A DNA stretch of 60,432 nucleotides from Narcine bancroftii (taxonomy: Eukaryota): positions 198,465,569 to 198,526,000 of the forward strand of contig NC_091475.1 of the NCBI RefSeq assembly GCF_036971445.1, read 5' to 3'. Shown here in pieces: positions 1 to 59,900 of this stretch. The stretch's first letter is position 1, and each line of letters starts with the position of its first letter. Made by a program: the position numbers and the translations under genes. The notes beneath the pieces are model-generated. The model was not told the origin of the DNA, made no database searches, and saw only the letters and a program-made list of their open reading frames with translations.

Positions 1-1076
1 GGTGGACAGAGAATTGGGTTGGGTCAAATGTTAAAAATCTGAAATACACACACAAAATGCTGGACATTCTCTGTCACTGCGTAGTATTTATGTTGTGTCC
101 ATGTTTTGGCTCTGAACCCCTCAAGTTAGTGGTGGAGGGCTTGAGGGGGTTTTTTCTGTTGTGGGGGAGGGAGAGAGTTCTTTTCTTCCCCCCCCCCCCC
201 CCCCCCCACTAGATTGTGACAGGTGTCGGACATTGTTGAGAGAAGCAGCTTGTAGATCCTGCTGATGGATTTGGGGATGGTTGTCGAAAGATGTTTCTGC
301 TACTCAAATCTTTATAATAAAGGTCAAAATACCATTTCTTCACCTTCCATGTTATCTTCTACTGATTCACATATCGGCTATTAAAGTCTCTCTGAATGTC
401 AATCCCTCAAACTTCTATTGTTTGGATCAATACTACACCTTACCTGACTTTTGTTTGGAAATTAATCTTGATGTGAATGAACTTGAGCAGTTTGTCCAAT
501 GCAGAGGATTTTTTTCTCTGCTTCTGATGGGAATTGAATATGCTACTTTGATGACATCCAGGATTTGATACTGTTCTTCGTTTTTATTTTCTAACCCCAT
601 TCTTGCACAAAAACCAAGAGGGAGGGTGGGTGGGTGGGGCTGCTTCACCGGATAACTTTCATGGTTATCCAAAGCTTCTGTCACAATAATAAATAAATGG
701 GGAATGGGCAATATGTTGGAAAAGAGAGACCTATAAAAGGATAGATAAAATCTAAATAACTGATTTTATTTTGGCAATCAATAAAAACTAATCATTGCCT
801 CAAATTTGGTATTGCCCATTATCCTGTTTTCTGCCACAATGGCCAAGGCTAATCTATTATAATACGAGAAGACCTTTGAAAAATGGGCTGCAATGATTGT
901 AATGCTGTTAAATATACCTGGTTAAAACAATTTCCTTCAACTAATGCAAAATCTTGAAGTCCTCCCCATGACCTTACCAACCCCCAATTGATTCTCTACT
1001 GACATTATGAAGTCTAATATTTACTCTTTATTGTGATTCAAATGATGATAGAACAGACTGGCTTGTTCAAAGCAGT

Positions 1077-1392
1077 GTACAAGGACTGCCTAAAGAAATC
1101 TCTTGGTGCCTGCCCCATTGACCACCGCCAGTGGGCTGATCTCGCCTCCAACCGTGCATCTTGGCGCCTCACAGTTCGGCGGGCAGCAACCTCCTTTGAA
1201 GAAGACCGCAGAGCCCACCTCACTGACAAAAGACAAAGGAGGAAAAATCCAACCCACCAATTTTCCCCTGTAACCGTGTCTGCCTGTCCCGCATCGGACT
1301 TGTTAGCCACAAACGAGCCTGCAGTTGACGTGGACATTTACCCCCTCCGTAAATCTTCGTCCGCGAAGCCAAGCCAAAGAAGAAGAAAGAAG
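1077..1392 (+). mobile_element. 5'-truncated RTE-clade (BovB-like) LINE, 3' end
   Basis: Translates YKDCLKKSLGAC..DHRQWADLASNRASWR..RRKNPT. Ends in a GAA-rich tail and is nearly identical to the copies at 13.3 kb and 18.9 kb. Confidence 0.9.
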
Positions 1393-8830: not shown

Positions 8831-9796
8831 GGGGAAGAATATTTTCTGACTGCTGGTGTGAAATCTTTAACAAGCTGCAAAAGACATTGCCTCAGCATTT
8901 CCTCATTATTGAAGTGATGCAATCATACATTACTTCCATGCTATCATTTGAAAATCAACCAATGAATTAACTGTACCAAACTGGTATTTAGATGACTTTA
9001 CCTCTTTCTGAATTCTAAAGACGGAAGTGAAAGTGTGACTATTTTCATCCACGCTAATGATATTGAAATGACATCTGGACGGGTTCAACCACAGCAACTC
9101 ATGGACCAACTCAACCATGTTTATTTTTTACCCAATATATTTTATTTTATGTAAAGCTCTCATCATGAGCTTCTTTGAACACATTCACATCATGTTCACT
9201 TTACAGCAGAGATACTAATAAACTGGATACCTTGCCCCCTCCCCTCTTCCCTTTTGAGTTTAGCTACTGCTCGACTGTGAATAACTAGTTTAATGCAGGC
9301 TGATTTAAAGTCCCAGTAGTTTCCTGATCAGTTTTATTATTTTTTTTACATTTATTTCTCCGAGTTATAATCTTCTTCTTGTATTGTGAAAATAGTGAGT
9401 CCTTATTCTGTTTGGGTGAAAGGATGTATACTAGCTATTCCGCTTGGCAGATATTCTTTAATGCAGCTACTTTTGATTTGCGGAAGTATCATTCCCTCTA
9501 ATCTGGATCTTTTTGTTCTCTCTTGCATTTGCATCTCAACCACTAGCAGGGGTATTTTTCATGGAAATTAGAAAATTATCCTTGCTACTGTTCTAAATTA
9601 TGTTGCTCCTTTCAATGTCACAGTTGAGGTCTGGCTATCAACAGTTCCTGACTACAAGTTTCCTTCTGCTTGCCTTTTTCCTTGTACTCTGTTTAACAGG
9701 GCTGAGGGACAACATTTTTTGAAATTAAGCTGCAATCCAAGGTCAAAATCTTTCCATACTGGAATTTTGAAATAATTTGTGCTTTTGTTTCACCAG

Positions 9797-10462
9797 ATTG
9801 ATGTTAAGGACTATATGCTAGTTGGCTTAAAGGATCAGACAGTGGGACGGTTGCCAGGTAAAGTTGCTGGTGAGCAGTTTGTCATTGAAGAATGTGAAAA
9901 CTGCAACATATATATATTTGACCACTCTGCTACCATTGCCATTGATGACTGCACCAACTGCAGGATATTTCTGGGACCTATCAAAGGAAGTGTGTTTTTC
10001 CGCAAATGCATAGACTGCAAATGTGTCATGGCTTGTCAGCAATTCCGTACACGTGATTGCAGAAAAATGGACATCTTCCTTTGCTGTGCAACCCAGCCCA
10101 TAATCGAATCATCTACGGGCATGAAGTTTGGCTGTTTCCAATATTACTATCCTGAGCTGGGTTATCAGTTCAAAGATGCAGGGTTGAGCATCTTCAATAA
10201 CAACTGGAGCAACATACATGACTTCACCCCTTCTTCAGATGAAAACAATTGGGTGTTGTTAGCTGAAGATACATTACCTCATGATTATGTTCCTCTTCCT
10301 GAATCAGAGGAGCTGAAAGCTGTTCGGATCTCAACTGATTTGAACAAAAGCATCGTTCCAGTTACACGAGGCCAAAGACAAAAGAACAGCGAGGAGTCAT
10401 GCTTAGTTGTGTTTTTTGCTGGAGTTTACACGACAGCCAATGCCAGGAAGTTGATTGATGAG
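9797..10462 (+). CDS. RP2: RP2 (protein XRP2, ARL3 GTPase-activating protein) coding exon 2, TBCC/C-CAP beta-helix domain
   Basis: Acceptor TTTCACCAG|ATT and donor GAG|GTGAGA. 666 bp, phase 0/0. Translates [63 protein letters not shown], collinear with human RP2 exon 2 including the catalytic CQQFR motif. Confidence 0.98.
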
Positions 10463-12091: not shown

Positions 12092-12206
12092 ATGGCTGCA
12101 AAGGATTTTGCTCTTGTTCAAACAAAGGAAATTTTGATGAAACCAGATGATGCCAATAGAGTATTTAAAGAGAAAGCAGCAGGCTTTATTCCATTGATTC
12201 AAGAAG
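12092..12206 (+). CDS. RP2: RP2 coding exon 3 (NDPK-like domain)
   Basis: Acceptor TTTTCAAAAG|ATG and donor AAG|GTAGTT. 115 bp. Translates MAAKDFALVQTKEILMKPDDANRVFKEKAAGFIPLIQE(G), matching human [29 protein letters not shown]. Confidence 0.96.
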
Positions 12207-13317: not shown

Positions 13318-13899
13318 TTTTTTTTTTTTCTTTGGCTTGGCTTCGCGGACGAAGATTTACGGAGGGGGTAAAAAGTCCACGTCAGCTGCAGGCTCGTTTG
13401 TGGCTGACCAGTCCGATGCGGGACAGGCAGACACGATTGCAGCGGTTGCAAGGGAAAATTGGTTGGTTGGGGTTGGGTGTTGGGTTTTTCCTCCTTTGCC
13501 TTTTGTCAGAGAGGTGGGCTCTGCGGTCTTCTTCAAAGGAGGCTGCTGCCCGCCAAACTGTGAGGCGCCAAGATGCACGGTTTGAGGCGTTATCAGCCCA
13601 CTGGCGGTGGTCAATGTGGCAGGCACCAAGAGATTTCTTTAGGCAGTCCTTGTACCTTTTCTTTGGTGCACCTCTGCCACGGTGGCCAGTGGAGAGCTCG
13701 CCATATAATACGATCTTGGGAAGGCGATGGTCCTCCATTCTGGAGACGTGACCCATCCAGCGCAGCTGGATCTTCAGCAGCGTGGACTCGATGCTGTCGA
13801 CCTCTGCCATCTCGAGTACCTCGACGTTAGGGGTGTGAGCGCTCCAATGGATGTTGAGGATGGAGCGGAGACAACGCTGGTGGAAGCGTTCTAGGAGCC
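13318..13899 (-). mobile_element. 5'-truncated RTE-clade LINE in RP2 intron 3 (antisense)
   Basis: ORF 13382-13810: QLRWMGHVSRMEDHRLPKIVLYGEL..RGAPKKRYKDCLK..CNRCNRVCLSRIGLVSHKRAC (C-terminal zinc finger). A-rich tail at 13318-13329. Confidence 0.93.
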
Positions 13900-15256
13900 A
13901 CTACCTTAATAATTCCACTTCTACTTTAATAATTTCTCTTTCCTCTTACTCTCTGTGCTTTGTCTTGAAGCCAGCTGGTCATATTCTGTGGTTGAGGCCT
14001 AACATCTTTTGATGGTGATCCTTTAAAGATTTTTTGCACATCAGACTGCTTTATCATTCCCTTGGTCAATTCTGTGCCATTCAATAAGAATGGGCTGACT
14101 ATTCATTATTATACTTATGTCCACATGTTTTGTATAATCTCTTATAATTTGGATTCCTTTATTTTTCATACCATGAATATTAAAGAAATGCTTTACAGAT
14201 TCCTGTAAAAGCTGTCTGTTCATTGCTTAAAAAATAAGTATTACCAGTATGTTACCTAGTCACCAGTCTGACAATACTTTCCTATAATTTTAGTCAGATG
14301 ACCTTGTCCTGGCATTTAAAACCTTTTGCTATAAAAGATGACATATCCTTTGCTACCCAATTTCCATCAATCAGCTGTCATATTCTAGTGGAAATTGTTG
14401 GTCAGCTAATGAGTTAATAATTCTGTCACATTTATAATCTTTTTACATAGTTATTTTGAAACATGTGAATGTAATCTATACGCATGAGGATTTTTGTATG
14501 TAACTTTTGAATAGTGTACTTAATATGTAGTTTATTTTTTTAAGCACTCTATTTATTATATAACTTGGCTTTCAATGTCATAACCACCTGTTTTGTCTCC
14601 CTAGTGAATTCTGAAGAATAATAATTGAATAAGTCTGCCTGTGACCACCAGTGGTGTTGTATAGACCAGCCATTCTTAACAGGCCATACAGGCCTCTGGG
14701 GGGGGGGGGGTCACAAAATATTTCATGGGGGTAATGGACTGAAATCATAAAATATTTGTTCTGTTTTTTATGTAGTTGGTAGGAGAGAAGTATGTAAGAA
14801 ACCAATTAAATGCTTCACAGGAAAGGGGCCCAATAAACTTTGAGTCCTAAGGGGGCCATAGCCAAAAACTGGTGAAAACAGCTGGTCTAGACTATATCTT
14901 AATCACAGGAATTACCAGAGGAATTTCTATCAAAATGGTTCTTCAATTTAATGCTGCTTGACCTGATAACAATTTCCAGCATTTTCTGTTTCTGTTCTTT
15001 TTTTTTTAAATGGTGTTTATAAAATAATTTAATATCCTATTTTATGTTCTCGGAAGTTGCTGTCTTTTTTTTAGTCTAATAATAAAATGTTGAAAATTTT
15101 GCCATTATGACATTGATAAAATCTGGTTGACTTGAATATAATGTAATCTGAAAATTAAAACTGAATCATCCAATTGCCACGATACCCAAGAGATGGTTAA
15201 ATGTATGTTTCAGGTACAGCAATAAAAATTTTGTTTTTTTTTAAATCCTTTTACAG

Positions 15257-15342
15257 GTCCTGTTGTTGCATTGGAATTTAATGGAGATGGCTCAGTGGAG
15301 GTCTGTCAGAATATAATCAGTTCTGTGTTCAGTACTTCCAAG
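15257..15342 (+). CDS. RP2: RP2 coding exon 4
   Basis: Acceptor CTTTTACAG|GT and donor AAG|GTAAAA. 86 bp, phase compatible with exon 3. Translates (G)[28 protein letters not shown]. Confidence 0.96.
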
Positions 15343-16559: not shown

Positions 16560-16643
16560 GTGTTTGTTTCTGAAAGCAAGTCTTCAGGATGCCAAGATGT
16601 GGACAATTTCTATAATTACGCTGATATACAAATGGGAATGTAA
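16560..16643 (+). CDS. RP2: RP2 coding exon 5 (terminal, to stop codon)
   Basis: Acceptor ACAG|GTG. Translates VFVSESKSSGCQDVDNFYNYADIQMGM*, matching human [27 protein letters not shown]. Confidence 0.96.
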   Translation: MFVSESKSSGCQDVDNFYNYADIQMGM

Positions 16644-18938: not shown

Positions 18939-19858
18939 CTTTTCTTCTTCTTTGGCTTGGCTTCGCGGACGAAGATTTATGGAGGGGGTAAAAGTCCACG
19001 TCAGCTGCAGCCTCGTTTGTGGCTGACAAGTCCGATGCGGGACAGGCAGACACGGTTGCAGGGGAAAATTGGTGGGTTGGGGTTGGGTGTTGGGTTTTTC
19101 CTCCTTTGTCTTTTGACAGTGAGGTGGGCTCTGCGGTCTTCTTCAAAGGAGGTTGCTGCCCGCCGAACTGTGAGAAGCCAAGATGCACGGTTTGAGGCGA
19201 TATCAGCCCACTGGCGGTGGTCAATGTGGCAGGCACCAAGAGATTTCTTTAGGCAGTCCTTGTACCTCTTCTTTGGTGCACCTCTGTCACGGTGGCCAGT
19301 GGAGAGCTCGCCATATAACACGATCTTGGGAAGGCGATGGTCCTCCATTCTGGAGACGTGACCCACCCAGCGCAGCTGGATCTTCAGCAGCGTGGACTCG
19401 ATGCTGTCGACCTGCCATCTCGAGTACTTCGACGTTTGGGATGAAAGCGCTCCAATGGATGTTGAGGATGGAGCGGAGACAACGCTGGTGGAAGCGTTCT
19501 AGGAGCCGTAGGTGATGCCGGTAGAGGACCCATGATTCGGAGCCGAACAGGAGTGTGGGTATGACAACGGCTCTGTATACGCTTATCTTTGTGAGGTTTT
19601 TCAGTTGGTTGTTTTTCCAGACTCTTTTGTGTAGTCTTCCAAAGGCGCTATTTGCCTTGGCGAGTCTGTTGTCTATCTCATTGTCGATCCTTTGCGGAAA
19701 CTGCCAAAGTGTTTGGCCTGGAAGTCAGTCTGAAGAAAACTGAGGTCCTCCATCAGCCAGCTCCCCACCATGACTACCAGCCCCCCCACATCTCCATCGG
19801 GCACACAAAACTCAAAACGGTCAACCAGTTTACCTATCTCGGCTGCACCATATCATCA
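18939..19858 (-). mobile_element. RTE-clade LINE with 5' inversion and 12-bp TSD
   Basis: Minus-strand RTE 3' part at 18939-19692 and plus-strand RTE segment at 19691-19860. TSD GAGCTGTAGTTT at 18927-18938 and 19859-19870. Confidence 0.92.
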
Positions 19859-20927
19859 GAGCTGTAGTTTGAAACAGAGGCATCCAACATTCTTTTAGAT
19901 TGTAAATAAACAAAAGATACCCCAAATAATCAAGTGAGAACCAAAGTAGGTGGGAAAAATACTGGAGAGGTAGAAGACTACATTTCACAACAGGACAAAT
20001 AGACCCTTTACATTTTGTGCTATTAATTTCCTATGGTTTAATAAAATAGTAAAGCCTGCACTATTCCTTTTGTTACAATAAATTGTTTGCTCTTTTGTTA
20101 ACAAAAAAAATTAACACTTCGTTCACAAGAAGCACACTATAAGTAAACAGTAATACAAAGAGACTTGATTAGAATCTTTGGCTGCATTGTGTGTAAAATT
20201 TATTTCAGTGTTTAACCTGCATAATCATGTTAATTATGTAAATATCATTAGTTGACACTTTGATCCACTTCATCTAGATGGACTAATTTCTGTTTGGTCT
20301 CAACTTTGTAATTTTATTCTCTTTCATTATGTCATAAAGCTTCCAGATTTAAGGTGTCTATTAATTGCTTTCCAGACTTTTCATGCAACCCCTTTACAGA
20401 AGGAAAGTCTAATGAGCTTTTTTCATGGGTGTGCTCTTTGCAGCAACATTAATTCTGAAATAAGTCATGAAAGATTTTAATTATTTTTTTTACAGATTAA
20501 AAAAGTTAGGTACAGAAATGGACATTGATAGACTTTTTAGAGTATTTATGCTCCAGGGGAGCTTGCATACACCCCTCCATCCAACTCTAATTTACCTTTC
20601 AATCCATTCACACTTTTTGTCTGGATAATTCCAAGTAATTGTAGTAGTCAGTGAATTCATGATTCCACAACTAAAATCATTAAATAATCTGTAACAAATT
20701 TTGGAATTTAAATATGAAAGTCAACTTACATAATGGTAAATTATCTGCAATCATTCCGAGGTAACATTGACAAATGCTTGTTAGAAAATCAGTAGAAAAA
20801 AATCTCAGATTTGCTGAAGAAATGTTCTGGTTGCAGATCATAAGTGGTTTCAGCTCAGAGACCTTGTTCATCTGTCAGCCCAACTGTGCTAACAATCTTG
20901 TTACCACCGCACTCCTTGCTCATTGAA

Positions 20928-20959
<32 letters not shown>

Positions 20960-21227
20960 TTTTTTTTTTTTTTTTTTAAATTTTTTTATTTTTCACACCA
21001 TAAATCACATTAGCCATGATATACACTATTTCTTTTCACACATATACAGTGACTTTTTCTCCCCCCCCCCCCTTTCCTCCCAAACCACCCCCCCACCCCC
21101 CCCTCTCATCCATTTTAGGTATACAATCTAGGTTGCATTAAGCCAGTCAGACAATGTTGTCATTCAACCAAATTACACCAGAAATTCTACTGAGTCCATT
21201 CTTTTCTTTCCTTCTCCTTCCATCAAC

Positions 21228-21435
21228 TTAGGTAATGTTTGTCCCCGGTAGGTTTTCGCTATTGTATTTAATGTAAGGCTCCTATACTTGTTCGAATATT
21301 TCAATGTTATTTCTTAACCAATATGTTATTTTTTCTAATGGAATACATTTATTCATTTAAATTTGGTAGTTTCTTCCTTTTAATTTGGTTATGTATTCCA
21401 TTAATATTTAAAGACATATAGTTCAGCGTAGCCCT
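21228..21435 (-). pseudogene. Fused N- and C-terminal stubs of L1 ORF2
   Basis: 21435-21358 reads (R)ATLNYMSLNINGIHNQIKRKKLPNL (APE endonuclease start). 21356-21228 reads MNKCIPLEKITYWLRNNIEIFEQV*EPYIKY (fish-type L1 ORF2 end). Confidence 0.8.
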
Positions 21436-22034
21436 TTTATATTTTGTTTATCTTCTCTTTCCGTTTTTCCATCATTACCTTTCCTCCTTTTCCATTTCTG
21501 TTTTCTTATTTTCAACTCTTTATAAGACAACATTCCTACAACATCTAACATTTTCCTTATTCTCCTATTTCTATCTTATTTATCCCCAATCTCCCCTTCA
21601 CCTCCTGAGTTGTCCTTTATCCCTTGTCGGACAACCACATCTCCCCTCTCCATTTGGATTTGCGAATCCACTCGCAAGCGTCAACTGATTTTGCAGTGAC
21701 CGCTATTTCCCCCCACCCCGCCTCCCCCAGAAAAGATTTCACTTTTCATATGTCACAAAGGTCCCTCTTTTAATTCCCTCCTTATTCTCTCTATTCCATT
21801 ACCTTCCCTTATTAATTCTTGTCTATACTATCCATATTTTCCTCTAAGTACAGATACATTCATGTATGCTCATTGTCTCTATTCACTCTTATACCTCTTT
21901 ACCTGCATACATATCAATCGTGATCATTTTTACTCTCATTACCCGTCTTCATCCCTCAGTCTATTTTTGTCTTTACCCACATACATATCAGTCGTGATCG
22001 TTTTAACTCTCATTACCCGTCTTCCTCCCTCAGT

Positions 22035-23258
22035 CTATTTTTGTAATTGTTCTGCAAATTTTCGTGCTTCTTCTGGATCCGCGAATAGTCTGTTTTGTTG
22101 TCCTGGAATAAATATTTTCAATACCGCTGGATGCTTTAGTATAAATTTATACCCTTTCTTCCATAAAATCGCCTTTGCTGTATTGAACTCTTTTCTCTTC
22201 TTTAGGAGTTCAAAACTTATATCTGGATAAATGAAGATTTTTTGCCCTTTATACTCCAGTGGTTTGTTGCCCTCTCTTACTTTTTCCATTGTCTTCTCCA
22301 GTACCTTTTCTCTTGTAGTATATCTTAGGAATTTTACTACAATAGATCTTGGTTTTTGTTGTGGTTGTGGTTTAGAGGCCAATACTCTATGTGCCCTTTC
22401 TATTTCCATTTCATGCTGTAGTTCTGGACATCCTAGGGTCTTAGGGATCCACTCTTTTATAAACTCCCTCATATTCTTGCCTTCTTCATCTTCCTTAAGG
22501 CCCACTATCTTTATGTTATTTCTTCTGTTATGGTTTTCCATTGTATCTATTTTTTGAGCTAGTAGTTCTTGTGTCTCTTTAGTTTTTTTATTAGATTCCT
22601 CCAATTTCTTTTTTAAGTCTTCTACCTCCATTTCTGCTGCTACTGCCCGCTCTTCCATCTTGTCCATTTTCTTTCCCATTTCTGTTAAGGTCATCTCCAT
22701 TTTATTTATTTTCTCTTCTGTGTTGTTTATTCTTTTTCTTAAATCCTTAAATTCCTGTGTTTGCCATTCTCTAAATGATTCCATGTATCCTCTAATAAGA
22801 GCAAGTATATCCTTTACCTTGCCTCTCTTTTCTTCTTCTATTTCACCATACTCTTCCTCTTCTTCTTCCTCTGGGTTGGCCATCTGTTGTTTCTTTGGTG
22901 CCCTTTCCTCCTCTTCTATCTTGTTTCTATTGTCTTCTGTGGTCTCTTCTTGCTGCAGGTGTTCTGCAGCTGTCGTTGCCGGCTGTGGAGATCGACTCCC
23001 CAGCTGGTCCCCCCTCCCGTCGGTGTGTTTTTTTTCATTCGCATCGCGCATGCGCGAAACTTCGCGCATGCGCGGTTGCGCACTTTTGTTCGGCTCTGCG
23101 AGCCATTTTTGTAGTCCATTATTTACCGACCTGAGGGAGCGGGTTTCTCTCTCCGCAGCGGGCCTCTTCGGACAGGTAAGGCCTTCACCTTTTTCCTCCT
23201 TTGTCTTCTCTTCCTCTCTTCTTACCGTTGCTTTCGACTTTTCTTTTTTTGTCGCCAT
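22035..23258 (-). CDS. L1 ORF1p (coiled coil + RRM + CTD; Transposase_22 family), 407 aa, uninterrupted
   Basis: Heptad-rich region followed by ENHNRRNNIKIVGLKE, EIERAHR, PRSIVVKFLRY, IYPDIS..KRKEF and HPAVLKI. Confidence 0.93.
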   Translation of the reverse strand: MATKKEKSKATVRREEEKTKEEKGEGLTCPKRPAAERETRSLRSVNNGLQKWLAEPNKSAQPRMREVSRMRDANEKKHTDGRGDQLGSRSPQPATTAAEHLQQEETTEDNRNKIEEEERAPKKQQMANPEEEEEEEYGEIEEEKRGKVKDILALIRGYMESFREWQTQEFKDLRKRINNTEEKINKMEMTLTEMGKKMDKMEERAVAAEMEVEDLKKKLEESNKKTKETQELLAQKIDTMENHNRRNNIKIVGLKEDEEGKNMREFIKEWIPKTLGCPELQHEMEIERAHRVLASKPQPQQKPRSIVVKFLRYTTREKVLEKTMEKVREGNKPLEYKGQKIFIYPDISFELLKKRKEFNTAKAILWKKGYKFILKHPAVLKIFIPGQQNRLFADPEEARKFAEQLQK

Positions 23259-24374
23259 CTTCTTTCCACCTTTATACTCACTTTTCTGTAACTTTTATTT
23301 CTGTGCCTTTGTGTTTTCTCTTGTTTTTCCCGACTTTTCTGGAGAGGGCTGGAGTTCACCGTCCGGCCACTACTCCATCACGTGACTCCTCCCGCTCATT
23401 GAATTTTTTGATGCAATTATCTAATTTTCTTTTAAAAGGACATGTCATCAGATCAACAAGAACGTGACACACAAATCCACATTCCGTATTGATGAGTGAC
23501 TTTTTTGGAATGTTATCAAAATATTTGTGACTGGTTGGTAGAATAGACCATTGATTACAACCTGGTAAAAGTAGATGATTTTAATTTTTTTCCTCCCCAT
23601 ACAGAACATTTGCAACTTTTTTCAGTAACAACTCTTCAATGAAAAAAAAAATCCCAATGTTTATAAACTGTCTTCTGCATTAGCCTAATACAAGGCAGGA
23701 AATCAGCTCCATAAACAACACCCTACCCTATAATCCAGCTTTCAGAATTAGTAACACAAGGAATATTTTACATATTGCTTGATTCTAAATGTAATTTTAC
23801 AACAAATCCTAGATCTACATCACTCTCACCTTCCCTCAATTTTTCAACCTAGATTTCAGTGGGACTTAATTCACCACACTTTCGAATTTTGAATGTTTGT
23901 TACCAAATACTTGTCATTTATTTGTCCATGGAACATACAAATATGCCACCAATGTTTGAACCATTTTCTGATGTGTTAAACCAATAATTCTGCTTTGGAG
24001 GTTCAAACCTAATGGTGCTGAAAACTGGAGGTTTTAAAGAATGTACATCTTGTGTGAGCACGACCTTATTATCTCAAATCTTCACAAGACCAACTGTTGA
24101 CTTGTAAATTGAACATTTTAAAGTTATTGTTGTTCCTTTTGTAAAAGCAATAAATAGATGTCTCATATTTGCAATCATCTAGTACTTTAACCTTGAAAAC
24201 ATTTACTTCAGTAATGTTGGGAATAATTGTGAAGATTAAATCTGAAGCAATTGAATTTGATCCGCATTAATATATTTCTCAATGTTACTCTTGATGATGA
24301 AGTGGTTTAATTAAAAAGTTCAAGGACTTATTCAACGTACTTTTCTATTCAGAAAACTCGTAAATGGAAGGCCA

Positions 24375-25717: not shown

Positions 25718-26419
25718 TTTTGTAAATTATGAATTTGTAAATATTGCAAATATATACATTTTATGCCATAATTTATGGTGAAATGAGAGAATGGATTTTT
25801 TAAAAATTATTTCCTATTTCATTTCCATCTGTTGGACGTAACAGACAAACCAATAAACCACTTGTTAAAATTGAGGGGTCATTAACTGGTGGGAATCTAA
25901 AAAAGACCAGTGACACAGTAATGGAGTAGCAGAATGTGTTCAGAAACTAGAGAGGCTTGCAGAGGGAATGTTGCATCATTGGTAATTTTCCATTTTCATA
26001 CAAATTGGGGAAAAAGCAGAGTAGTTCATGTCTGGTAGTGAACTTACTGAGTTTGAATGTTTTCTGTGGCATTGTGACCCAGGACCCGCAAGAGGCTGGT
26101 TGCACTGGTAGGCTAAGATAAATTTTCCATATCATTAACTTTGCTAAATAGATTCATTGATTAATTGAAAGGATTATCCATTGCTAACTTAATATTTAAT
26201 GGGACAAGTCAGTCTGCAATCTGAACAGAGTAAACTGGTTACAAATGACTAATAGCTGATCAGTGAAAAGAGATAAAATTTTTTGGTTTGATTGGATTCA
26301 TGCCAAGTTTTCAAGAGGTGACATGAATTTTAGTATATTGCCTCACAGAAGTTTTTTAAGGGATTATGAAAAGAGTAATCCTATACTACTTGAAGATATA
26401 ATTTATGATCATTTTAAAT

Positions 26420-27950
26420 ATTAGAATTTGTCATGAACAAGTCACGAAATTCAGATTTTTGCAGGAGCTTCATAGTGGAAATATTCATACTATTACCATC
26501 TTGGAACAATAATATAAGAAATAACAATAATTGAGCACAAAAAGTAGCAGTGTCTTTGGTTCAATGATAATTCAGGAATCTGATGGCAGCGGGGATGAAG
26601 CTGTCCTTGTGTTGCTGTGTGCTCCTCTTTAGGCTCCTGCACCTTTTTCCCTGATGGTAGAGTGAAGAGGGCTTGGCCTGGGGGATGGGGGTCTTTGAGG
26701 ATAGAGGCTGCTCTTTTAAAACACTGCCCCATGTAGATGTCCTCGATGGAGTGGAGTCTGGTGCCTATGATGTTGCAGGCTGAGTTTACAATCAGGAGTT
26801 TTTTCTTGTCTTGAGATTTGGTGCCTCCATACCAGAAAGTGATAAAACCAACCAGAATGCTCTCCATGGTACACCTGTAGAAGTTTTGGAGTCTTGGGTG
26901 ACATACCGAATCTCCTCAAGCACCTCACAAAGTATAGTCACTGGCATCTGTATGGAGGCTTCAGGGCAGATCCTCAGAAACGTTGACACCCAGTGATTTG
27001 AAGTTCTTGAACTTCTCAACTATTGAGCCCTCTGAGGACTGGGTCATGTTCCCCTGACTCCCTCCTGAAGTGCACAATCATCATCTTGGTTTTGCTAATG
27101 TTGATCGCAAGGTTGTTGTCAAAGAGCTGATCTATCTCCCTTCTATACGCTTCCTCATTGCCGTTTATGATTCTACCGACAACTGTGGTGTCATTGGCAA
27201 ATGTAGATAGCATTGAAATTGTGCCTGACCACAGAGACATGGATGTATAATGAGCAGGGCAGTGGGCTAAGCACGCATCCTTAGGTGCGCCTGTGTTGAT
27301 GATCATTGAGGAGACGTTGCTTCCAATTCATACCGACTGTGGTCTTCCAATGAGAAAGTCAAGTATCCAGTTGTAGAGTGGGGTACAGGGCTCAGAGTTT
27401 GTATCTTGACCAGCACTGAGGGAATAATGGTATTGAAGGCTGAGCTGTAGTCAATGAAGGCCAGCTGTACGTATGAGTTGCTGTTTTCAAGGTGTTCTAG
27501 AGCTGAGTGGAGAGCCAACAATATTACATCTGCTGTGCAGCGATTGTGATAGGCAAATTGCAATGGGTCCAGATCTTTACTTAGGTACGTGTTAATTTTG
27601 GCCATGACCAGCCTCTCAAAGCATTTCATTACAGTTAGTGCTACTAGGCCATAGTCATTGAGGCAGCTCACCCTGCTCTTCCTGGGCACCAGGATGATTG
27701 ATGCCCTTTTGAAGCAGGGTGGGAACCTTTGACAGCAGCAATGAGAGGTTGAAAAGGTCTGTGAACACTCTAACTAGTTGGTTGGCACAGATTTTCAGTA
27801 CCCTGCCATGTATGCTGTCAGCCTGACGCCTTGCAAGGGTTCACCCTCTTGAAAGATGTTCTAACATCGTCCTCGAAGACAGATGTCGCAGGGTCTTCAG
27901 CCTTTGCAGGGATTCTAGTAGGCACTGTTTGGTCTTCTTCTCAAAGCAAA
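26420..27950 (-). mobile_element. Rex1/Babar LINE, 5'-truncated and frameshifted
   Basis: Translates [65 protein letters not shown] and ASILKDPHPPGQALF. Confidence 0.9.
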
Positions 27951-31809: not shown

Positions 31810-33060
31810 ATCATGTCAGTTCCCTCATCCCCTCCCTGTGCCCGGCAACCTCTTCCTCACCACCGTTCGGGGCCACAAAGAGACCGTCCAAGCGAAGCGA
31901 TGCTTAACTTGAAAATCTGGGGGTCATTTACCGCTCCCATTGTGGTCTGCTCCACAAGAGAGGGAGACGGGGAGGTTGTTTCTCTGAGCAACTTCGCCCT
32001 GTCCACTGCCATAGTAAGGGCCCACCCACTGGCCAACCATTTCAACCTCACGCTGACACATCCATCTCATGCACTGACAAATCGCAAATTGGAGGAACAG
32101 CACCTCATAATCCAACAGGGCACCTCATAATCCAACAGGGCACCTCATAATCCAACAGGGCACCTCATAATCCAACAGGGCACCTCATAATCCAACAGGG
32201 CACCTCATAATCCAACAGGGCACCTCATAATCCAACAGGGCACCTCATAATCCAACAGGGCACCTCATAATCCAACAGGGCACCTCATAATCCAACAGGG
32301 CACCTCATAATCCAACAGGGCACCTCATAATCCAACAGGGCACCTCATAATCCAACAGGGCACCTCATAATCCAACAGGGCACCTCATAATCCAACAGGG
32401 CACCTCATAATCCAACAGGGCACCTCATAATCCAACAGGGCACCTCATAATCCAACAGGGCACCTCATAATCCAACAGGGCACCTCATAATCCAACAGGG
32501 CACCTCATAATCCAACAGGGCACCTCATAATCCAACAGGGCACCTCATAATCCAACAGGGCACCTCATAATCCAACAGGGCACCTCATAATCCAACAGGG
32601 CACCTCATAATCCAACAGGGCACCTCATAATCCAACAGGGCACCTCATAATCCAACAGGGCACCTCATAATCCAACAGGGCACCTCATAATCCAACAGGG
32701 CACCTCATAATCCAACAGGGCACCTCATAATCCAACAGGGCACCTCATAATCCAACAGGGCACCTCATAATCCAACAGGGCACCTCATAATCCAACAGGG
32801 CACCATTATCACTGACTGTTCCCCCCCCCCCATATCTCTCTCTCTCTCACTATCCCTCTTTCTCCTTTCCCCCACCCCCACCCCCACCCCCACCCCCACC
32901 CCCCCCCCCTTCTCTACCCTTCCCTGATCGGTTCTTTTTCTCCTCTACCTTCCTCTCCCACCTTTGACTTCAGGCGCCCGCCTGATTTTGTTCAACACCT
33001 TGCCGACGGGCTGAGGCCCGAAGCGACTCCCTCAAGGGGGATGCTGTGTCCAGGTCCTTG
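31810..33060 (+). mobile_element. Penelope-like remnant hosting the 20-bp array
   Basis: Degenerate GIY-YIG sequence (..PLANHFN..RKLEEQHLI) followed, after the array, by a pyrimidine-rich tract. Same layout as 7440-8030. Confidence 0.6.
32101..32784. repeat. Minisatellite, 34 identical copies of CACCTCATAATCCAACAGGG
   Basis: Perfect 20-bp period with no variant units or spacers. Confidence 0.98.
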
Positions 33061-33160: not shown

Positions 33161-33737
33161 CCACGGCTTCAGGACAGTCCGAGGCCCCCTGCGGTCCCGT
33201 CGCCTCCGGCCTCGGAAGGCCGACCGTGGCCCCTCCCACCATGCTTTGCGGCGCGCACGCGCGCTGGCTTCTGTCCCCGTCCACGGCTTCAGGACCGTCC
33301 GAGGCCCCCTGCGGTCCCGTCGCCTCCGGCCTCGGAAGGCCGACCGTGGCCCCTCCCACCATGCTTTGCGGCGCGCACGCGCGCTGGCTTCTGTCCCCGA
33401 CCACGGCTTCAGGACCGTCCGAGGCCCCCTGCGGTCCCGTCGCCTCCGGCCTCGGAAGGCCGACCGTGGCCCCTCCCACCATGCTTTGCGGCGCGCACGC
33501 GCGCTGGCTTCTGTCCCCGTCCACGGCTTCAGGACCGTCCGAGGCCCCCTGCGGTCCCGTCGCCTCCGGCCTCGGAAGGCCGACCGTGGCCCCTCCCACC
33601 ATGCTTTGCGGCGCGCACGCGCGCTGGCTTCTGTCCCCGACCACGGCTTCAGGACCGTCCGAGGCCACCTGCCGTCCCGTTGCCCCGCCCCCCCCGCCAT
33701 GCTTTGCGGCGCGGGCGCACGCGCACTGGCTTCTGTC
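33161..33737. repeat. GC-rich 120-bp tandem repeat (4 full copies + 1 degenerate)
   Basis: Units start at 33161, 33281, 33401, 33521 and 33641 (CCACGGCTTCAGGAC..). The last base alternates T/A/T/A. Confidence 0.97.
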
Positions 33738-38184: not shown

Positions 38185-39145
38185 CCCCCATCCCCCGCAA
38201 CTGGATCCTTGACTTCCTCTTTGGAAGATCAGTCAGTGCGAATTGGAAACAATGTCTCCTCCTCACTGATTATCAACACAGGCATACTTCAAGGATGTGT
38301 GCTTAGCCCACTGCTCTACTCGTTATACACCAATGACTGTGTGGCCAGGCACAATTCCAATGCTATCTACAAGTTTGCCGATGACACCACAGTTGTCGGC
38401 AGAATCACAAACTGCAATGAGGAAGTGTACAGGAGGGAGATAGATCAGCTCGTTGAGTGGTGTCACGCCAACAACCTTGCACTCAACGTTAACAAAACCA
38501 AGGAGATGATTGTGGACTTCAGGAGGAGGTCGGGAACATGACCCAGTCCTCAGAGGGCTCAATAGTTGAGAGGTTCAAGAACTTCAAATCCCTGGGTGTC
38601 CATGTTGATGCAATCACGAAGAAGACTCACCAGCGGCTATACTTTGTGAGGTGTTTGAGGAGATTCGGTATTGTCACCGAAGACTTTCGAAAACTTCTAC
38701 AGGTCTTCTGTGGAGAGCCATCCTGAGTGGTTGCATCATTGTCTGGTATGGAGGTGCCAACTCTCAGGACAAGTAAAAACTCCAGAGGGTTGTAAACTCA
38801 GCCTGCGTCAACACAGGCACCAGACTTCATTCCATCAGGACATCTACAAGAGTTGGTGTCTTTTTTTTTAAAAAAAAAGCATCCTGTATCCTCAAAGACC
38901 TTTTCACTCTTCGACCATCAGGAAAAAGGTACAGGAGCCTAAAGCCAAGCACTCAGTGGCACAAGGACAGCTTCTTCCCTGTTGCCATCAGATTCCTGAA
39001 TAATCAATGAACCAAAGACACTGCCTTACTTTTTGTGCACTTCTTAAAAATTTATTATTGTAAACTGGTTTATATGAATATTTGTTCTATGATTGCAGCT
39101 GCAAAGTATCACATTTTGTGTCTTGTTCATAACAATAAATTCTGA
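38185..39145 (+). mobile_element. Rex1/Babar LINE, 5'-truncated
   Basis: Translates NTGILQGCVLSPLLYSLYTNDC..KFADDTTVVGRI..WCHANNLALNVNKTKEMIVDFRR. Same family as the 26.4-kb copy. Confidence 0.9.
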
Positions 39146-39312
39146 TTTTACCATTTAAGTTTCTGATACAGGTTGAATAACCCTTATCTGAATACCTGAA
39201 ATCTGAAACGATCCAAAACTTTTTTCATCTGTGATCCCAAAAGGTAATATGTAATAGAGTTCAGAAATCCCGATCGAAGAACGGGATTATTGAGTGTAGA
39301 TTTTTCAATATA

Positions 39313-53751: not shown

Positions 53752-55388
53752 TAGAAACATAGAAACATAGATGATAGGAGCAGGAGTAGGTCATTCGACC
53801 CTTCGAGCCTGCTCCGCCATTCAACGAGATCATGACTGATCTTAAAGTTCAGTACCCTGTCCCCGCCTTCTCTCCGTAACCTTTAATACCCTTATACTGA
53901 AGAAATAGATCTAATTCCCTCTTAAATAGATTTAATGAACCTGCCTCTACTGTCCTCTGTGGCAATGAATTCCACAGATTCACCACCCTCTGGGTAAAGA
54001 AATTCCTCCTCATCTCGGTCCTAAATGGTTTGCCTATTATCCTCAAACTATGACCCCGGGTTCTGGATTTTCCCATCCTTGGAAACATCCCATCTGCAAC
54101 CATTCTGTCCAGTCCTGCCAGAATTTTATATGTCTCTATGAGATCCCCTCTCAATCTTCTAAACTCCAGCGAATACAATCCCAATTTGCGCAATCTTTCC
54201 TCATAAGTCATTCCTGCCATTCCAGGTATCAGCCTGGTGAATTGCCTCTGCACTCCCTCCATTGCAAGAACATCCTTCCTTAGATCAGGTGACCAAAACT
54301 GCACACAATACTCCAGGTGGGGTCTCACCAAGGCCCTGTACAGCTGCAGTAAGGCATCCTTGTTCCTATACTCAAACCCTCTTGATATGAAGACCAACAT
54401 ACCATTTGCCTTTTTAACTGCCTGCTGTACCTGCATGCTCGCCTTCAGAGACTGGTGTACAAGTACCCCTAGGTCTCTCTGCACTTCCCCATCTCTTAAT
54501 CTATTGCCATTCAAATAGTAATCTGCCCTCCGGTTTGTATTACCAAAGTGGATAACCTCACATTTATCCACATTGTAGTGCATTTGCCATGTATCTGCCC
54601 AGTCCCTCAATTGATCCAAATCACACTGGAGCTTCCTGACCCCCTCTTCCGTGCACACAACCCCTCCTAGCTTAGTGTCATCTGCAAATTTGGAGATATT
54701 ACATCCAATCCCCTCATCCAGATCATTAATGTAAATTGTGAACAGCTGGGGTCCCAGTACAGATCCCTGTGACACCCCACTGGTCACCGCCTGCCACTCA
54801 GAAAACGAGCCATTTATCCCAACTCTCTGTCTTCTTCCTGCCAGCCAGTTCTCAGTCCACATCAATACTTTGCTCCCAATCCCATGAGCCTTGATTTTGG
54901 AAGCCAGTTGTTTGTGCGGAACCTTATCGAAGGCCTTTTGGAAGTCCAGGTACACCACATCCACTGGCTCTCCCCCATCTATTTTACCTGTCACCATCTC
55001 AAAGAATTCCAATAGATTTGTCAAGCACGATTTACCTTTTGTAAATCCATGTTGACTCCATCTGATCCCTTCTCTGCCAGTCATATGCTCCACTATTACA
55101 TCCTTAATAATGGATTCCATCATTTTGCCCACTACTGACGTAAGGCTCACCGGCCTATAATTCCCTGCTTTTTCTCTACCCCCTTTTTAAACAGTGGGGT
55201 AACATTAGCTACCCTCCAATCCATGGGTACTGATCCTGAGTCTATTGAGTTCTTGAAAATAATTCTTATAGCATCTGCTATCTGAATGGCCACTTCCTTA
55301 AGTACCCTAGGATGTAGATTATCAGGCCCTTGGGATTTATCTGCCTTTGATCCCATCAATTTCCCCAAGACTATGTCCTTAGAGATTC
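53752..55388 (-). mobile_element. Young 5'-truncated CR1 LINE with a 433-aa open RT region
   Basis: ORF 53849-55150: SQHGFTKGKSCLTNL, YLDFQKAFDKVPH, GVSQGSVLGP, SKFADDTKLGG. One frameshift joins it to 55147-55368. (CTATGTTT)n 3' tail at 53752-53770. Confidence 0.95.
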
Positions 55389-56931: not shown

Positions 56932-59900
56932 TGTTACTGAAGCGAACAAACGAGACAAGCTCATTTTGCTCAAATGGGCTCATTTGCATTCAAAGTTTAT
57001 TTTTCTTTCACGCGCTGCATTTTAAAGCCACCAGAAGATCCAGCCCCTTGCACCGGAAACCACGTCCATGTGATGCCACCGCACTGCACATGTGGGCCCG
57101 CAACCTCTGCCGGAGGAGACGAATGCGCGGTGCCACCTAAGATGTGGCTGCTCCGCTGACGTGCGCGTGACACACAGCCAGTTCACCTGACCATCAGTTA
57201 CGTGCACTGCCACACGATTCCCCCCACCCTCCCGCACCCCCCCCCCCCCCACCAAAGAACAGGCACCAGTTTCTGTATTTTGCAGAACTTTTAATTTGAG
57301 GGGTCTACCCCTGCGCTTGGCCGACTGGGGTGAAACCGGCTGACGTAAGTCCAGGTGGGCCAGTTTCAAACAGTCAATGGTGAAAAGTCCCTCCCTACAT
57401 CCAACGTCCAAAGTGAATGTAGAGCCGTTGTTGCGGATTACCTTGTAAAGTCCCTCATAAGGTCGTTGTAGGGGTGAGAGATGGGTACCCCTGCGGACAA
57501 ACACAAACTCAGTGTGTTTTAAGTCTTTGGGTATGAAGGAGGGGCTCTGACCCTGGTGGGCGTGGTGCAAGATTGCTTAGCTTGTTGCGGAGCCGTTGGA
57601 GAACTGTGGCGCCTTCAGGTTCCTGGTCGCTTGTTCGCTGATGATGCTTGAAGGTCCTCTATCGAGACTGTACAGATCCCAAGAAGGACCCAGGGTAGCT
57701 CGTCCACCCAGTTGGGGCCGGTCAACTGGCCCATGAGGACCGATTTGAGGTACCTGTGAAAACATTCCACCAGGTCGTTGGATTGGGGGTGGTAGGCTGT
57801 TGGGTGGTGCAGTTTTGCGTTGACTAGGCGCGCCAATTCTGTCCGTTGGATGGAAGTGAACTGTGCACCTCTTTCTGTAGTCAAATGTGCAGGGATTCAA
57901 AAACGGGATATCCATGCGGACTACAGCTCTTGCTGATGGGTTCTGCCTCCAGCCATTTTGTAAACCAGTCGACGATGGTGAGGAGGTAGACTAATAGGGG
58001 CCCCACGATGTCGACATGTATATGTTCGGCTTGGTGTCTCGAACTGCTGGATAGGGGCCTTAGTGTGCTTGTGGATCTTGGCAGTCTGGAAGTGCATGCA
58101 TGTTCTTGCCCACTCACTGACCTGCTTGTGAGGCCGTGCCATATAAGACGAGGCGACCATGCAGACCGTTGTCTTGATGGAGGGATGGGAAAGGCCATGG
58201 ATTGAGTCAAAGGCCCACGGAGCGGGGATTACCAGATGAGGGTTCTCCGTGGACACATTGTAGAGTAGTGTCCTCTTGCTCTGCGTCAGTTGTACATCCT
58301 GGAGATGCAAGCCAGCGATGGCAGTGCGGAGAGCTCGAGTCTTTGCATTCATCTCTTGTGCCTGCGCAAGCTCTGTGTAGTCTAGCCCTGTACTAATGTT
58401 TGAATCGCAGACCTCAAGAGGACATCTGCCGTGATGTTGTCTCTACCAGAGAGTTGTCGGATGTCCGTGGTAAATTTGGAGATGTAGGCCATGTGGCGCT
58501 GCTGCTGGACTGACCAGGGCTCTGAAACTTTTGAAAAAGCAAATGTTAAAGGCGTATGGTTGGTGAATATTGTGAATGGCCTCCCTTCCAGGAAGTATCT
58601 GAAATTACGCACTGCAAGGTAAAGTGCCAGCAACTCCCTATCGATAGCACTGAATTTTAGTTCTGGTGGCCTCAAGTGGCAGCTGAAGAAAGCTAAGGGT
58701 TTCTAAGCTATTTGAGAACCCCGCTGATGGTGGTGGCAGATGCATCGACAGTGAGGACGGTAGGAACATCTGTCCTTGGGTGTACCAGTAATGAAGGATT
58801 GGCCAGAGCATCTTTTGTTTGTTGGAAAGCTACTGAGGCCTTGTCGTCCCATACTAGGTCTTTCTTTGTTGCGGCCATAATGGCGAAGAGTGGTCGCATG
58901 ATCTTGGCGGCTACTGGAATGAAGCAGTTGTAAAAATTGACCATGCCCGCAAATACTTGCGGGTCTTTCATCATGGTCAGCCTGGCGAATCGTATCACTG
59001 TGGTTGGCAGGAGTGTTGCACCATCTCTGGTGATCCTGTGGCCCAGGAAATCAATGACCTCTAATCCAAATTGGCACTTAGCCGGGTTGACGGTGAGGCT
59101 GAAATCACTGAGGCGGGAGTACAACTGGTGCAGGTGGGAGGCGTATTCCTAGTGATCCCTGCTGGTGATGAGGATGTTGTTGAGCAGGAAATCCAAATCC
59201 TTGCCAACTGCGTCCATGAGACGCTGGAATGTCTGTGCCACATTCTTGAGACCAAAAAGCATGTGCTGGAACTTGGAGGCCAAAGGCGTGATTATGGCTG
59301 TCTTCTTGATGTTGTCGGGATGCACGGGGATCTGACAGAATCCCCGCACCAGGTCGACCTTTGAGAAAATTTGTTGGCTGTGAAGTCTTGAATGTGGGGG
59401 ATAGCAATCTGGAATGGTGGTGTCATTAAGGTGTTTGTAGTCCCCGCTCAATTCCCAACTGCCGGTGGCTTTCTGGACCATATGTAACGGTGAGGGCTGT
59501 CGGATTTGCGGATGATGCCCAGTTCTTCCATCCATTTGAACTTCTTCCTTTGCCAGTTGTAGGTGTTGTGCATGGAGGGGAGAGCTCTGGGTGGTGATGT
59601 GGTGTTGAATGCCATGCTTCAGCTTGGCAGATGTGAATTGGGGCCTGGAGATTGGCGGGAACTCTGCCAAAATGTGGCTTTATTTAACGGTGGGGGCTGA
59701 TACCAAGGCAAGTTGTGGGGCTGGCATTCAGCTTCCTCGAGTGGGAAGGCCTGGAAAGTTTACACGTGCACCAATCATTTGGCCTTTAGGTCGACTAGCA
59801 GGCTGTGTGCTCTCAGGAAGTCTTTGCCCAGGAGTGGTTTTTGTCCTGATCCAAGCTTGAAATCCCAGCGGAAAGTATCCTAGCCAGACTGCCACCCACT

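What the first reader, a model, noticed from the sequence alone, without database searches (positions are those of the whole stretch)
20918..23409. Complete ORF1-only ('half-L1') retrotransposon: intact ORF1p, with ORF2 collapsed to fused end-stubs
Seen: a 2.46-kb minus-strand unit bounded by a 16-bp TSD, at an L1-endonuclease-type site (TTTT/GA), with an L1-like GGGAGGAG 5' end, AATAAA and a long poly(A). It carries an uninterrupted 407-aa ORF1. Where ORF2 should be there are only about 210 bp. The first ~26 codons of the endonuclease (ATLNYMSLNINGIHNQIKRKK, with AGG at the expected start codon) are joined out of frame at about 21357 to the last ~40 codons (LEKITYWLRNN..FEQV*EPYIKY, with a stop at the expected Trp). 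Known: HAL1 elements encode ORF1p only and are mobilised in trans by L1; the ones I know of are mammalian. Inference: perfect TSDs and a long tail indicate a recent insertion. Disabling changes in the tiny ORF2 stub alongside a clean 1.2-kb ORF1 suggest that the deleted form is itself a propagating family under selection for ORF1p, which would be an independently evolved HAL1 in a cartilaginous fish.
Basis: partly seen in the sequence, partly recalled or inferred. Interest (0 to 1): 0.85.

Follow-up and report, generated by a model that had tools for sequence, protein, structure and literature searches.

The report
ORF1-only L1 retrotransposon in a ray
This is a recently inserted, full-ended jumping gene that keeps its RNA-packaging protein but has lost almost exactly its copying enzyme, probably a parasite of L1 like the mammalian 'half-L1' elements, though only one copy was seen.

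Summary
The anatomy is confirmed: a 2,460-bp minus-strand L1-type insertion with a perfect 16-bp TSD, TTTTTT/GA target, complete 5' end, open 407-aa ORF1p (coiled coil-RRM-CTD) and an A tail. Only about 209 bp stand where a ~3.8-kb ORF2 is expected. The closest ORF1 proteins are labelled Narcine bancroftii (88-90% identity).

New here: a 13-bp perfect inverted repeat straddles the ORF2 junction (2 of 3,000 shuffles reach it). Start and end of ORF2 could pair, and reverse transcriptase could jump the loop.

Internal clocks favour an inherited deletion. ORF1 shows no stop and no CpG decay, while a spacer duplication and the ORF2 stubs carry lesions unlikely to post-date so young an insertion.

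The defining test failed to run: no second copy with this junction and no autonomous partner could be retrieved. The C-terminal stub's identity rests on recall only.

Verdict: probably a HAL1-like non-autonomous lineage outside mammals (about 0.68), a new variant of a known kind. A one-off, stem-guided deletion is the main rival (about 0.2). No fish HAL1 appeared in ten literature searches; Repbase and Dfam were unchecked.

The parts
23394..23409 (-). 5' target-site duplication (16 bp)
   Evidence: identical to 20918-20933; flank gives TTTTTT/GA on + strand
23259..23393 (-). 5' UTR, 135 nt; 11-nt motif at 23379-23389 also opens the zebrafish L1-8 consensus, so the 5' end is probably complete
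   Evidence: supplement of PMC5381506 part 7; zebrafish 5'UTR range 113-267 nt
22035..23258 (-). ORF1, 407 aa: disordered residues 1-140, coiled coil 140-244, RRM and CTD to 404
   Evidence: PDB E 4e-13; AlphaFold2 model, pLDDT 82-96 per block from residue 151; Pfam Transposase_22 only E 0.027
23045..23074 (.). 14-bp perfect CpG-rich palindrome inside ORF1
   Evidence: (I3)
21896..22043 (-). 74-bp tandem duplication spanning the ORF1 stop; copies differ at 6 of 74 sites, 3 of CpG type
21436..22034 (-). inter-ORF spacer, 599 nt, retained whole
   Evidence: zebrafish range 311-730 nt
21358..21435 (-). ORF2 N-terminal (endonuclease) stub, 26 codons; AGG where the start is expected, in-frame ATG at codon 7
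   Evidence: weak PDB hits; Atlas lead, a cluster with 13% Exo_endo_phos at rank 19 of 30, score 0.90
21391..21403 (.). inverted-repeat arm 1, in the N-stub
21355..21361 (-). approximate deletion junction, out of frame; about 3.6 kb missing if ORF2 had the zebrafish mean length
   Evidence: frame switch; size estimate; exact base inferred
21336..21348 (.). inverted-repeat arm 2, in the C-stub
21228..21356 (-). putative ORF2 C-terminal stub, 43 codons with internal TAG at 21282-21284
   Evidence: ORF-like base composition; no database match; identity recalled
20980..21227 (-). 3' UTR with G-quadruplex-type tract (21061-21103) and AATAAA (20985-20990)
20934..20979 (-). poly(A) tail, 42 A in 46 nt
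20918..20933 (-). 3' target-site duplication

Best explanation
A young copy of a non-autonomous, ORF1-only L1 derivative that works like HAL1. Shown: full 5' end, intact ORF1p fold, missing ORF2, TPRT hallmarks. Inferred: the internal 5' promoter makes a ~2.4-kb polyadenylated RNA; its own ORF1p coats it in cis; ORF2p from an autonomous sister L1 nicks TTTT/GA-type DNA and copies it in trans. Inferred origin: in an ancestral full-length RNA or cDNA, complementary stretches at the start and end of ORF2 paired and looped out ~3.6 kb, and reverse transcription jumped the loop. The shortened element then kept copying, with selection on ORF1 but not on the stubs.
For: Youth: perfect TSD, long tail, open ORF1, and 0 of 39 detectable CpG half-sites decayed, against 3 of 33 in paralogue P0003 and 3 of 16 in the spacer duplication (Fisher p=0.02). 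Both stub lesions arising after insertion with ORF1 left open has model probability of 0.004 or less at any divergence up to 3%; given two disabling changes, both falling in the stubs has p=0.03. Private ORF1 changes concentrate in the N-terminal half, 16 vs 5, p=0.008. Only 1.9% of uniform deletions would spare ORF1 and both ends while removing 90% of ORF2. The 13-bp inverted repeat across the junction is reached by 2 of 3,000 codon shuffles and 0 of 2,657 random element pairs; duplex -26.1 vs -15.2 +/- 3.2 kcal/mol. In cell culture, human ORF1-only RNAs are mobilised in trans only with functional cis ORF1p (PMC11260458 section 30).
Against: No second copy was seen and no partner ORF2 was retrieved. 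AGG and TAG are assumed to be derived and disabling, but the partner could share them: an in-frame ATG lies six codons on, and the TAG is near the end. ORF1 selection could all date from the autonomous phase. The conservativeness test of private substitutions was not significant (p=0.087). The statistics were chosen after seeing the lesions. The inverted repeat makes a one-off or recurrent deletion at this spot more likely too. Internal deletion is a normal fate of L1 copies (PMC5872511 passages).
Confidence: 0.68

Rival explanations
1. One-off (or independently recurring) template jump during this copy's own insertion from a full-length L1 RNA, guided by the stem; a dead-end copy, not a family.
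For: The inverted repeat gives a ready route. The intact ORF1 and perfect TSD follow from youth alone. Single copy in the window.
Against: It requires the source to carry both AGG and TAG while still supplying or borrowing ORF2p; post-insertion origin of both has model probability of 0.004 or less.
Confidence: 0.2
2. A full-length L1 inserted here and lost ORF2 later by a genomic deletion (hairpin- or microhomology-mediated).
For: Non-mammalian L1s are subject to frequent DNA deletion (PMC5381506 passage). An imperfect 22-bp direct repeat (77%) lies at the junction.
Against: Little time has passed since insertion. Endpoints both within 131 nt of the ORF2 termini are 0.1% of uniform deletions.
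Confidence: 0.07
3. ORF2 was removed as a cryptic intron and the spliced RNA retrotransposed.
For: Spliced L1 insertions are known in mammals (recalled; the search returned nothing).
Against: The 5' side of the junction lacks the usual exon-end AG; the inverted repeat offers another route.
Confidence: 0.03
4. Assembly artefact: ORF2 collapsed at a hairpin.
For: A hairpin sits at the junction.
Against: No N in the window; coherent TSD, tail and reading frames; the stub lesions would be unexplained.
Confidence: 0.02

Closest known systems
HAL1 (half-L1) of mammals
   Same: L1-derived, encodes ORF1p only, non-autonomous; arose several times independently in mammals (PMC5753468, PMC5786205 passages).
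   Different: Host is a cartilaginous fish by the ORF1 hit labels. The ORF1p is ray/fish-type. The spacer and both ORF2 end-stubs are kept. Multi-copy status is not shown here.
ORF1-present bipartite non-autonomous LINEs: HeT-A (Jockey clade), Ag-Sponge (CR1 clade)
   Same: 5' part with ORF1 joined to the 3' part of the parent LINE (PMC5786205 discussion).
   Different: Other clades, in insects; HeT-A's telomeric role (recalled) has no counterpart here.
Autonomous non-mammalian vertebrate L1, e.g. zebrafish L1-8
   Same: Short 5' UTR, long spacer, short 3' UTR within zebrafish ranges; shared 11-nt 5' motif.
   Different: ORF2 (3,516-3,837 nt in zebrafish) is reduced to 209 nt; ORF1 is longer (1,224 vs 780-1,059 nt); the 3' UTR is G-rich rather than T-rich.
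Narcine bancroftii ORF1-type proteins P0001, P0003, P0002
   Same: 90%, 88% and 68% identity.
   Different: No genomic context is available, so whether they sit in full-length or deleted elements is unknown.

Membership tests
HAL1-type non-autonomous L1 | L1-type ORF1p, intact | tested here: met
HAL1-type non-autonomous L1 | No functional ORF2 | tested here: met
   209 nt in two frames between spacer and 3' UTR
HAL1-type non-autonomous L1 | Inserted by TPRT (TSD, A tail, L1-EN-type site) | tested here: met
HAL1-type non-autonomous L1 | Multi-copy family sharing the ORF2-less structure at independent sites | not testable with these tools
   none in the 60-kb window; no eukaryotic genome collection; prokaryotic scan gave 1 spurious locus of 223 candidate stretches
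HAL1-type non-autonomous L1 | Purifying selection on ORF1 after ORF2 loss | tested here: inconclusive
   selection pattern on the lineage, but its timing relative to the deletion is only inferred from stub lesions
HAL1-type non-autonomous L1 | Co-existing autonomous partner L1 | tested here: inconclusive
   no ORF2 relative found; the tools call such blanks weak evidence
Mammalian HAL1 lineages (by descent) | ORF1p and ends derived from a mammalian L1 | tested here: not met
   best relatives are ray and fish ORF1 proteins; 5' end is zebrafish-L1-like
L1 clade (versus Tx1) | Reverse-transcriptase phylogeny | not testable with these tools
   RT is deleted; ORF1 type, 5' motif and target site point to L1

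The most novel reading that the evidence does not exclude
An uncatalogued, recently active ORF1-only L1 family in a ray, independent of mammalian HAL1. It was born because the start and end of ORF2 base-pair and let reverse transcriptase excise the gene almost exactly: a built-in, possibly recurrent route from an autonomous L1 to a defective-interfering parasite of it.
Probability: 0.4. Interest if true: 0.68.

Novelty: new variant of a known kind. Interest (0 to 1): 0.5.

Why it matters
If it is a family, the HAL1 strategy evolved convergently outside mammals, and a young example with visible ORF2 end-stubs exists. Old mammalian HAL1s rarely show how ORF2 was lost; here a specific stem-and-jump mechanism is testable. 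It would give a natural test of the cell-culture result that cis ORF1p licenses trans-mobilisation. It also points to recent L1 activity in a chondrichthyan, where a 2016 survey found only fragments (PMC5203782 passage). If it is a one-off, it is an ordinary internally deleted L1 with a neat junction.

Tried and rejected
Other copies in the window: blastn gave only self-matches and 7 short hits at E 0.036 or worse. A Pfam scan of 126 of 145 ORFs of 75 aa or more found families in 7, none L1 ORF1 or endonuclease; tandem-repeat ORFs and the element were excluded beforehand.

Partner ORF2: C-stub against longer proteins, 0 of 2 candidates; ORF1 domain against 714-2,035-aa proteins, 0 of 338; N-stub against 1.84 billion representatives, 0; C-stub against PDB, 0. 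Contig counts for the ORF1 clusters and an Atlas look-up of the C-stub were not obtained, so copy number and C-stub identity stay open.

Prokaryotic genomes: 1 locus, 32 residues at 47%, judged spurious. Rfam: 1 match at E 0.81, outside the element.

Rejected: an intronic position in RP2, which I first assumed. The gene's last coding exon ends near 16,640, so the element lies about 4.3 kb downstream, antisense. Rejected as evidence: the Leu-to-Pro-like codon before the junction, which may be templated by the adjacent 22-bp repeat; and the 74-bp duplication as a marker of the deletion, since it could sit in autonomous L1s too.

Bao and Jurka 2010 was not held. The zebrafish consensus sequences were cut at 400 nt, so ORF2 ends could not be compared.

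Full report
Observation. On the minus strand the unit runs 23393 to 20934 (2,460 bp) between two identical 16-mers, which occur only twice in the window. The + strand reads TTTTTT/GA at the left edge of the target. A 14-16-bp TSD is the peak for full-length human L1 (PMC2912911 passages). The tail has 42 A in 46 nt, after AATAAA. These are TPRT hallmarks and not chance.

The 5' end looks complete. The 135-nt UTR is within the zebrafish range, and its 11-nt motif at 23379-23389 also opens the zebrafish L1-8 consensus (PMC5381506 passages and supplement parts 1 and 7 of 7).

ORF1. It is open for 407 codons and matches human ORF1p structures over residues 195-402 at E 4e-13. It folds as a disordered head, long coiled coil, RRM and CTD. 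Of 24 hits among 6,392 candidates, four are labelled Narcine bancroftii, the best at 90% and 88%; the host is therefore inferred to be that ray or a near relative. ORF1 ends about 7 codons earlier than P0001 through a one-base frame difference present in both copies of a 74-bp duplication. This falls after the last predicted helix and is probably harmless.

ORF2 remnant. After a 599-nt spacer, 209 nt hold two short frames. The first resembles the L1 endonuclease N-terminus: 6 of 6 listed PDB hits are L1 EN residues 8-27, but at E 1.4-2.4, and the Atlas gave only a lead. The second matched nothing. I take it as the ORF2 C-terminus from its position, its ORF-like composition and a recalled fish-L1 end motif that comes from no call. 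With the zebrafish mean ORF2 length, about 3.56 kb is missing.

A 13-bp perfect inverted repeat straddles the junction, with one arm in each stub (21391-21403 and 21336-21348), extended by an outer helix. It is reached by 2 of 3,000 codon shuffles and 0 of 2,657 random segment pairs from the element. The stub duplex is -26.1 against -15.2 +/- 3.2 kcal/mol, with 1 of 500 shuffles as good. Only three sites in the window have such a repeat with a short spacer: a microsatellite, this one and a palindrome in ORF1. If both arms are native coding sequence, they lay about 3.6 kb apart in the parent and could pair, bringing the ends of ORF2 together. A template jump across the loop is my inferred origin. 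It also means similar junctions could recur independently.

One-off or family? No second copy is in the window, and no tool reached the host genome. Indirect evidence follows. (a) Youth: against the two close paralogues, 0 of 39 detectable CpG half-sites in ORF1 have decayed, whereas P0003 shows 3 of 33 and P0001 1 of 9. Three apparent decays seen only against distant P0002 were set aside because the close paralogues share the window's residue. The spacer duplicates differ at 6 of 74 sites with 3 of 16 CpG half-sites decayed (Fisher p=0.02), so the duplication predates this insertion or ORF1 was under selection. (b) Private ORF1 changes fall 16 in the N-terminal half and 5 in the C-terminal half (p=0.008); five ambiguous sites (two N, three C) and the terminal residue were left out. 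Their conservativeness was not significant (p=0.087). (c) A lost start and a new stop both arising after insertion, with ORF1 still open, has model probability of 0.004 or less; given two disabling changes, both in the stubs has p=0.03. This assumes both are derived and disabling, which is unverified: an in-frame ATG lies six codons on. (d) Only 1.9% of uniform deletions give this anatomy, though the stem would raise that. Together these favour a source element already free of ORF2 constraint while ORF1 was kept, that is a propagating lineage, at about 0.68.

Mechanism. Inferred: transcription from the internal promoter, cis coating by ORF1p, and trans use of a sister L1's ORF2p at the poly(A) tail. 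In HeLa cells an ORF1-only RNA is mobilised in trans, and an RNA-binding-dead ORF1p abolishes this (PMC11260458, passages and section 30). The aligned basic pair is R-K here against R-R in human. That result explains why ORF1 would stay under selection.

Known relatives. HAL1 is defined as an ORF1p-only L1 derivative that arose several times in mammals (PMC5753468, PMC13756887, PMC4161310 passages; bat HAL1 table in PMC3342881). HeT-A and Ag-Sponge are insect analogues from other clades (PMC5786205 passages). The element works like HAL1 but does not descend from mammalian HAL1, and the multi-copy criterion is untested.

Novelty. Ten library searches (listings only, except the papers cited) showed no HAL1-type element in fish or elasmobranchs. 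A 2016 survey reported only L1 fragments in Chondrichthyes (PMC5203782 passages). The primary HAL1 paper was not held; Repbase, Dfam, subscription journals, bioRxiv supplements and the metagenome and viral contig collections were unchecked. A catalogued consensus is therefore possible.

Context. The element lies about 4.3 kb downstream of the last coding exon of an RP2-like gene (TBCC domain, E 5e-47; gene name recalled), in antisense. No effect on it is evident.

Verdict. Real feature, new variant of a known kind, interest 0.5. One genome-wide BLAST would move it up to about 0.68 or down to about 0.15.

Noticed in passing
window 9776-10462, ~12092-12206, ~15256-15341, ~16560-16640 (+): Four coding exons of an RP2-like gene (TBCC domain; name recalled); the element lies downstream of the stop.
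   Followed up: partly
window 21061-21103 (-): G-quadruplex-type tract in the 3' UTR. PMC5381506 calls the 3' poly-G tract mammal-specific, yet this ray L1 has one. A second G-rich tract lies in the spacer near 21700-21730.
   Followed up: no
window 21896-22043 (-): The 74-bp duplication plus the one-base shift puts the P0001-like C-terminal peptide back in the ORF1 frame, 18 codons after the ORF1 stop; readthrough would restore it. Probably coincidence.
   Followed up: no
window 20934-20979: The tail is two A21 runs, each preceded by TT; it may include the parent copy's genomic tail or reflect slippage.
   Followed up: no
window 23045-23074: 14-bp CpG-rich perfect palindrome within ORF1, in a 10-codon stretch absent from paralogue P0002.
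   Followed up: no
window 32100-32804: 20-bp tandem repeat, 35.2 copies at 100% identity.
   Followed up: no
window 33161-33684: 120-bp GC-rich tandem repeat, 4.4 copies at 98%, in a 70% GC island that may be a promoter.
   Followed up: no
window 53849-55186 (-): 445-codon open reverse-transcriptase frame (RVT_1, E 1e-29), CR1-like by recall; a young LINE 3' fragment.
   Followed up: no
window 1068-1391, 13318-13899, 18940-19507: Three related LINE 3' fragments at 88-94% identity, RTE-like by recall.
   Followed up: no
window ~57600-59700 (-): Degraded LTR-retrotransposon pol region with RT and RNase H matches in broken frames.
   Followed up: no
window 26417-27373 and 38198-39149: Two opposite-orientation copies of another LINE fragment, 78% identical, with RVT_1 and ALKBH8_N matches in the second.
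   Followed up: no
proteins P0002, P0004: NCBI models named FAM122B and tRNA adenosine deaminase 1 consist largely of L1 ORF1p, i.e. chimeric or mis-named gene models.
   Followed up: no
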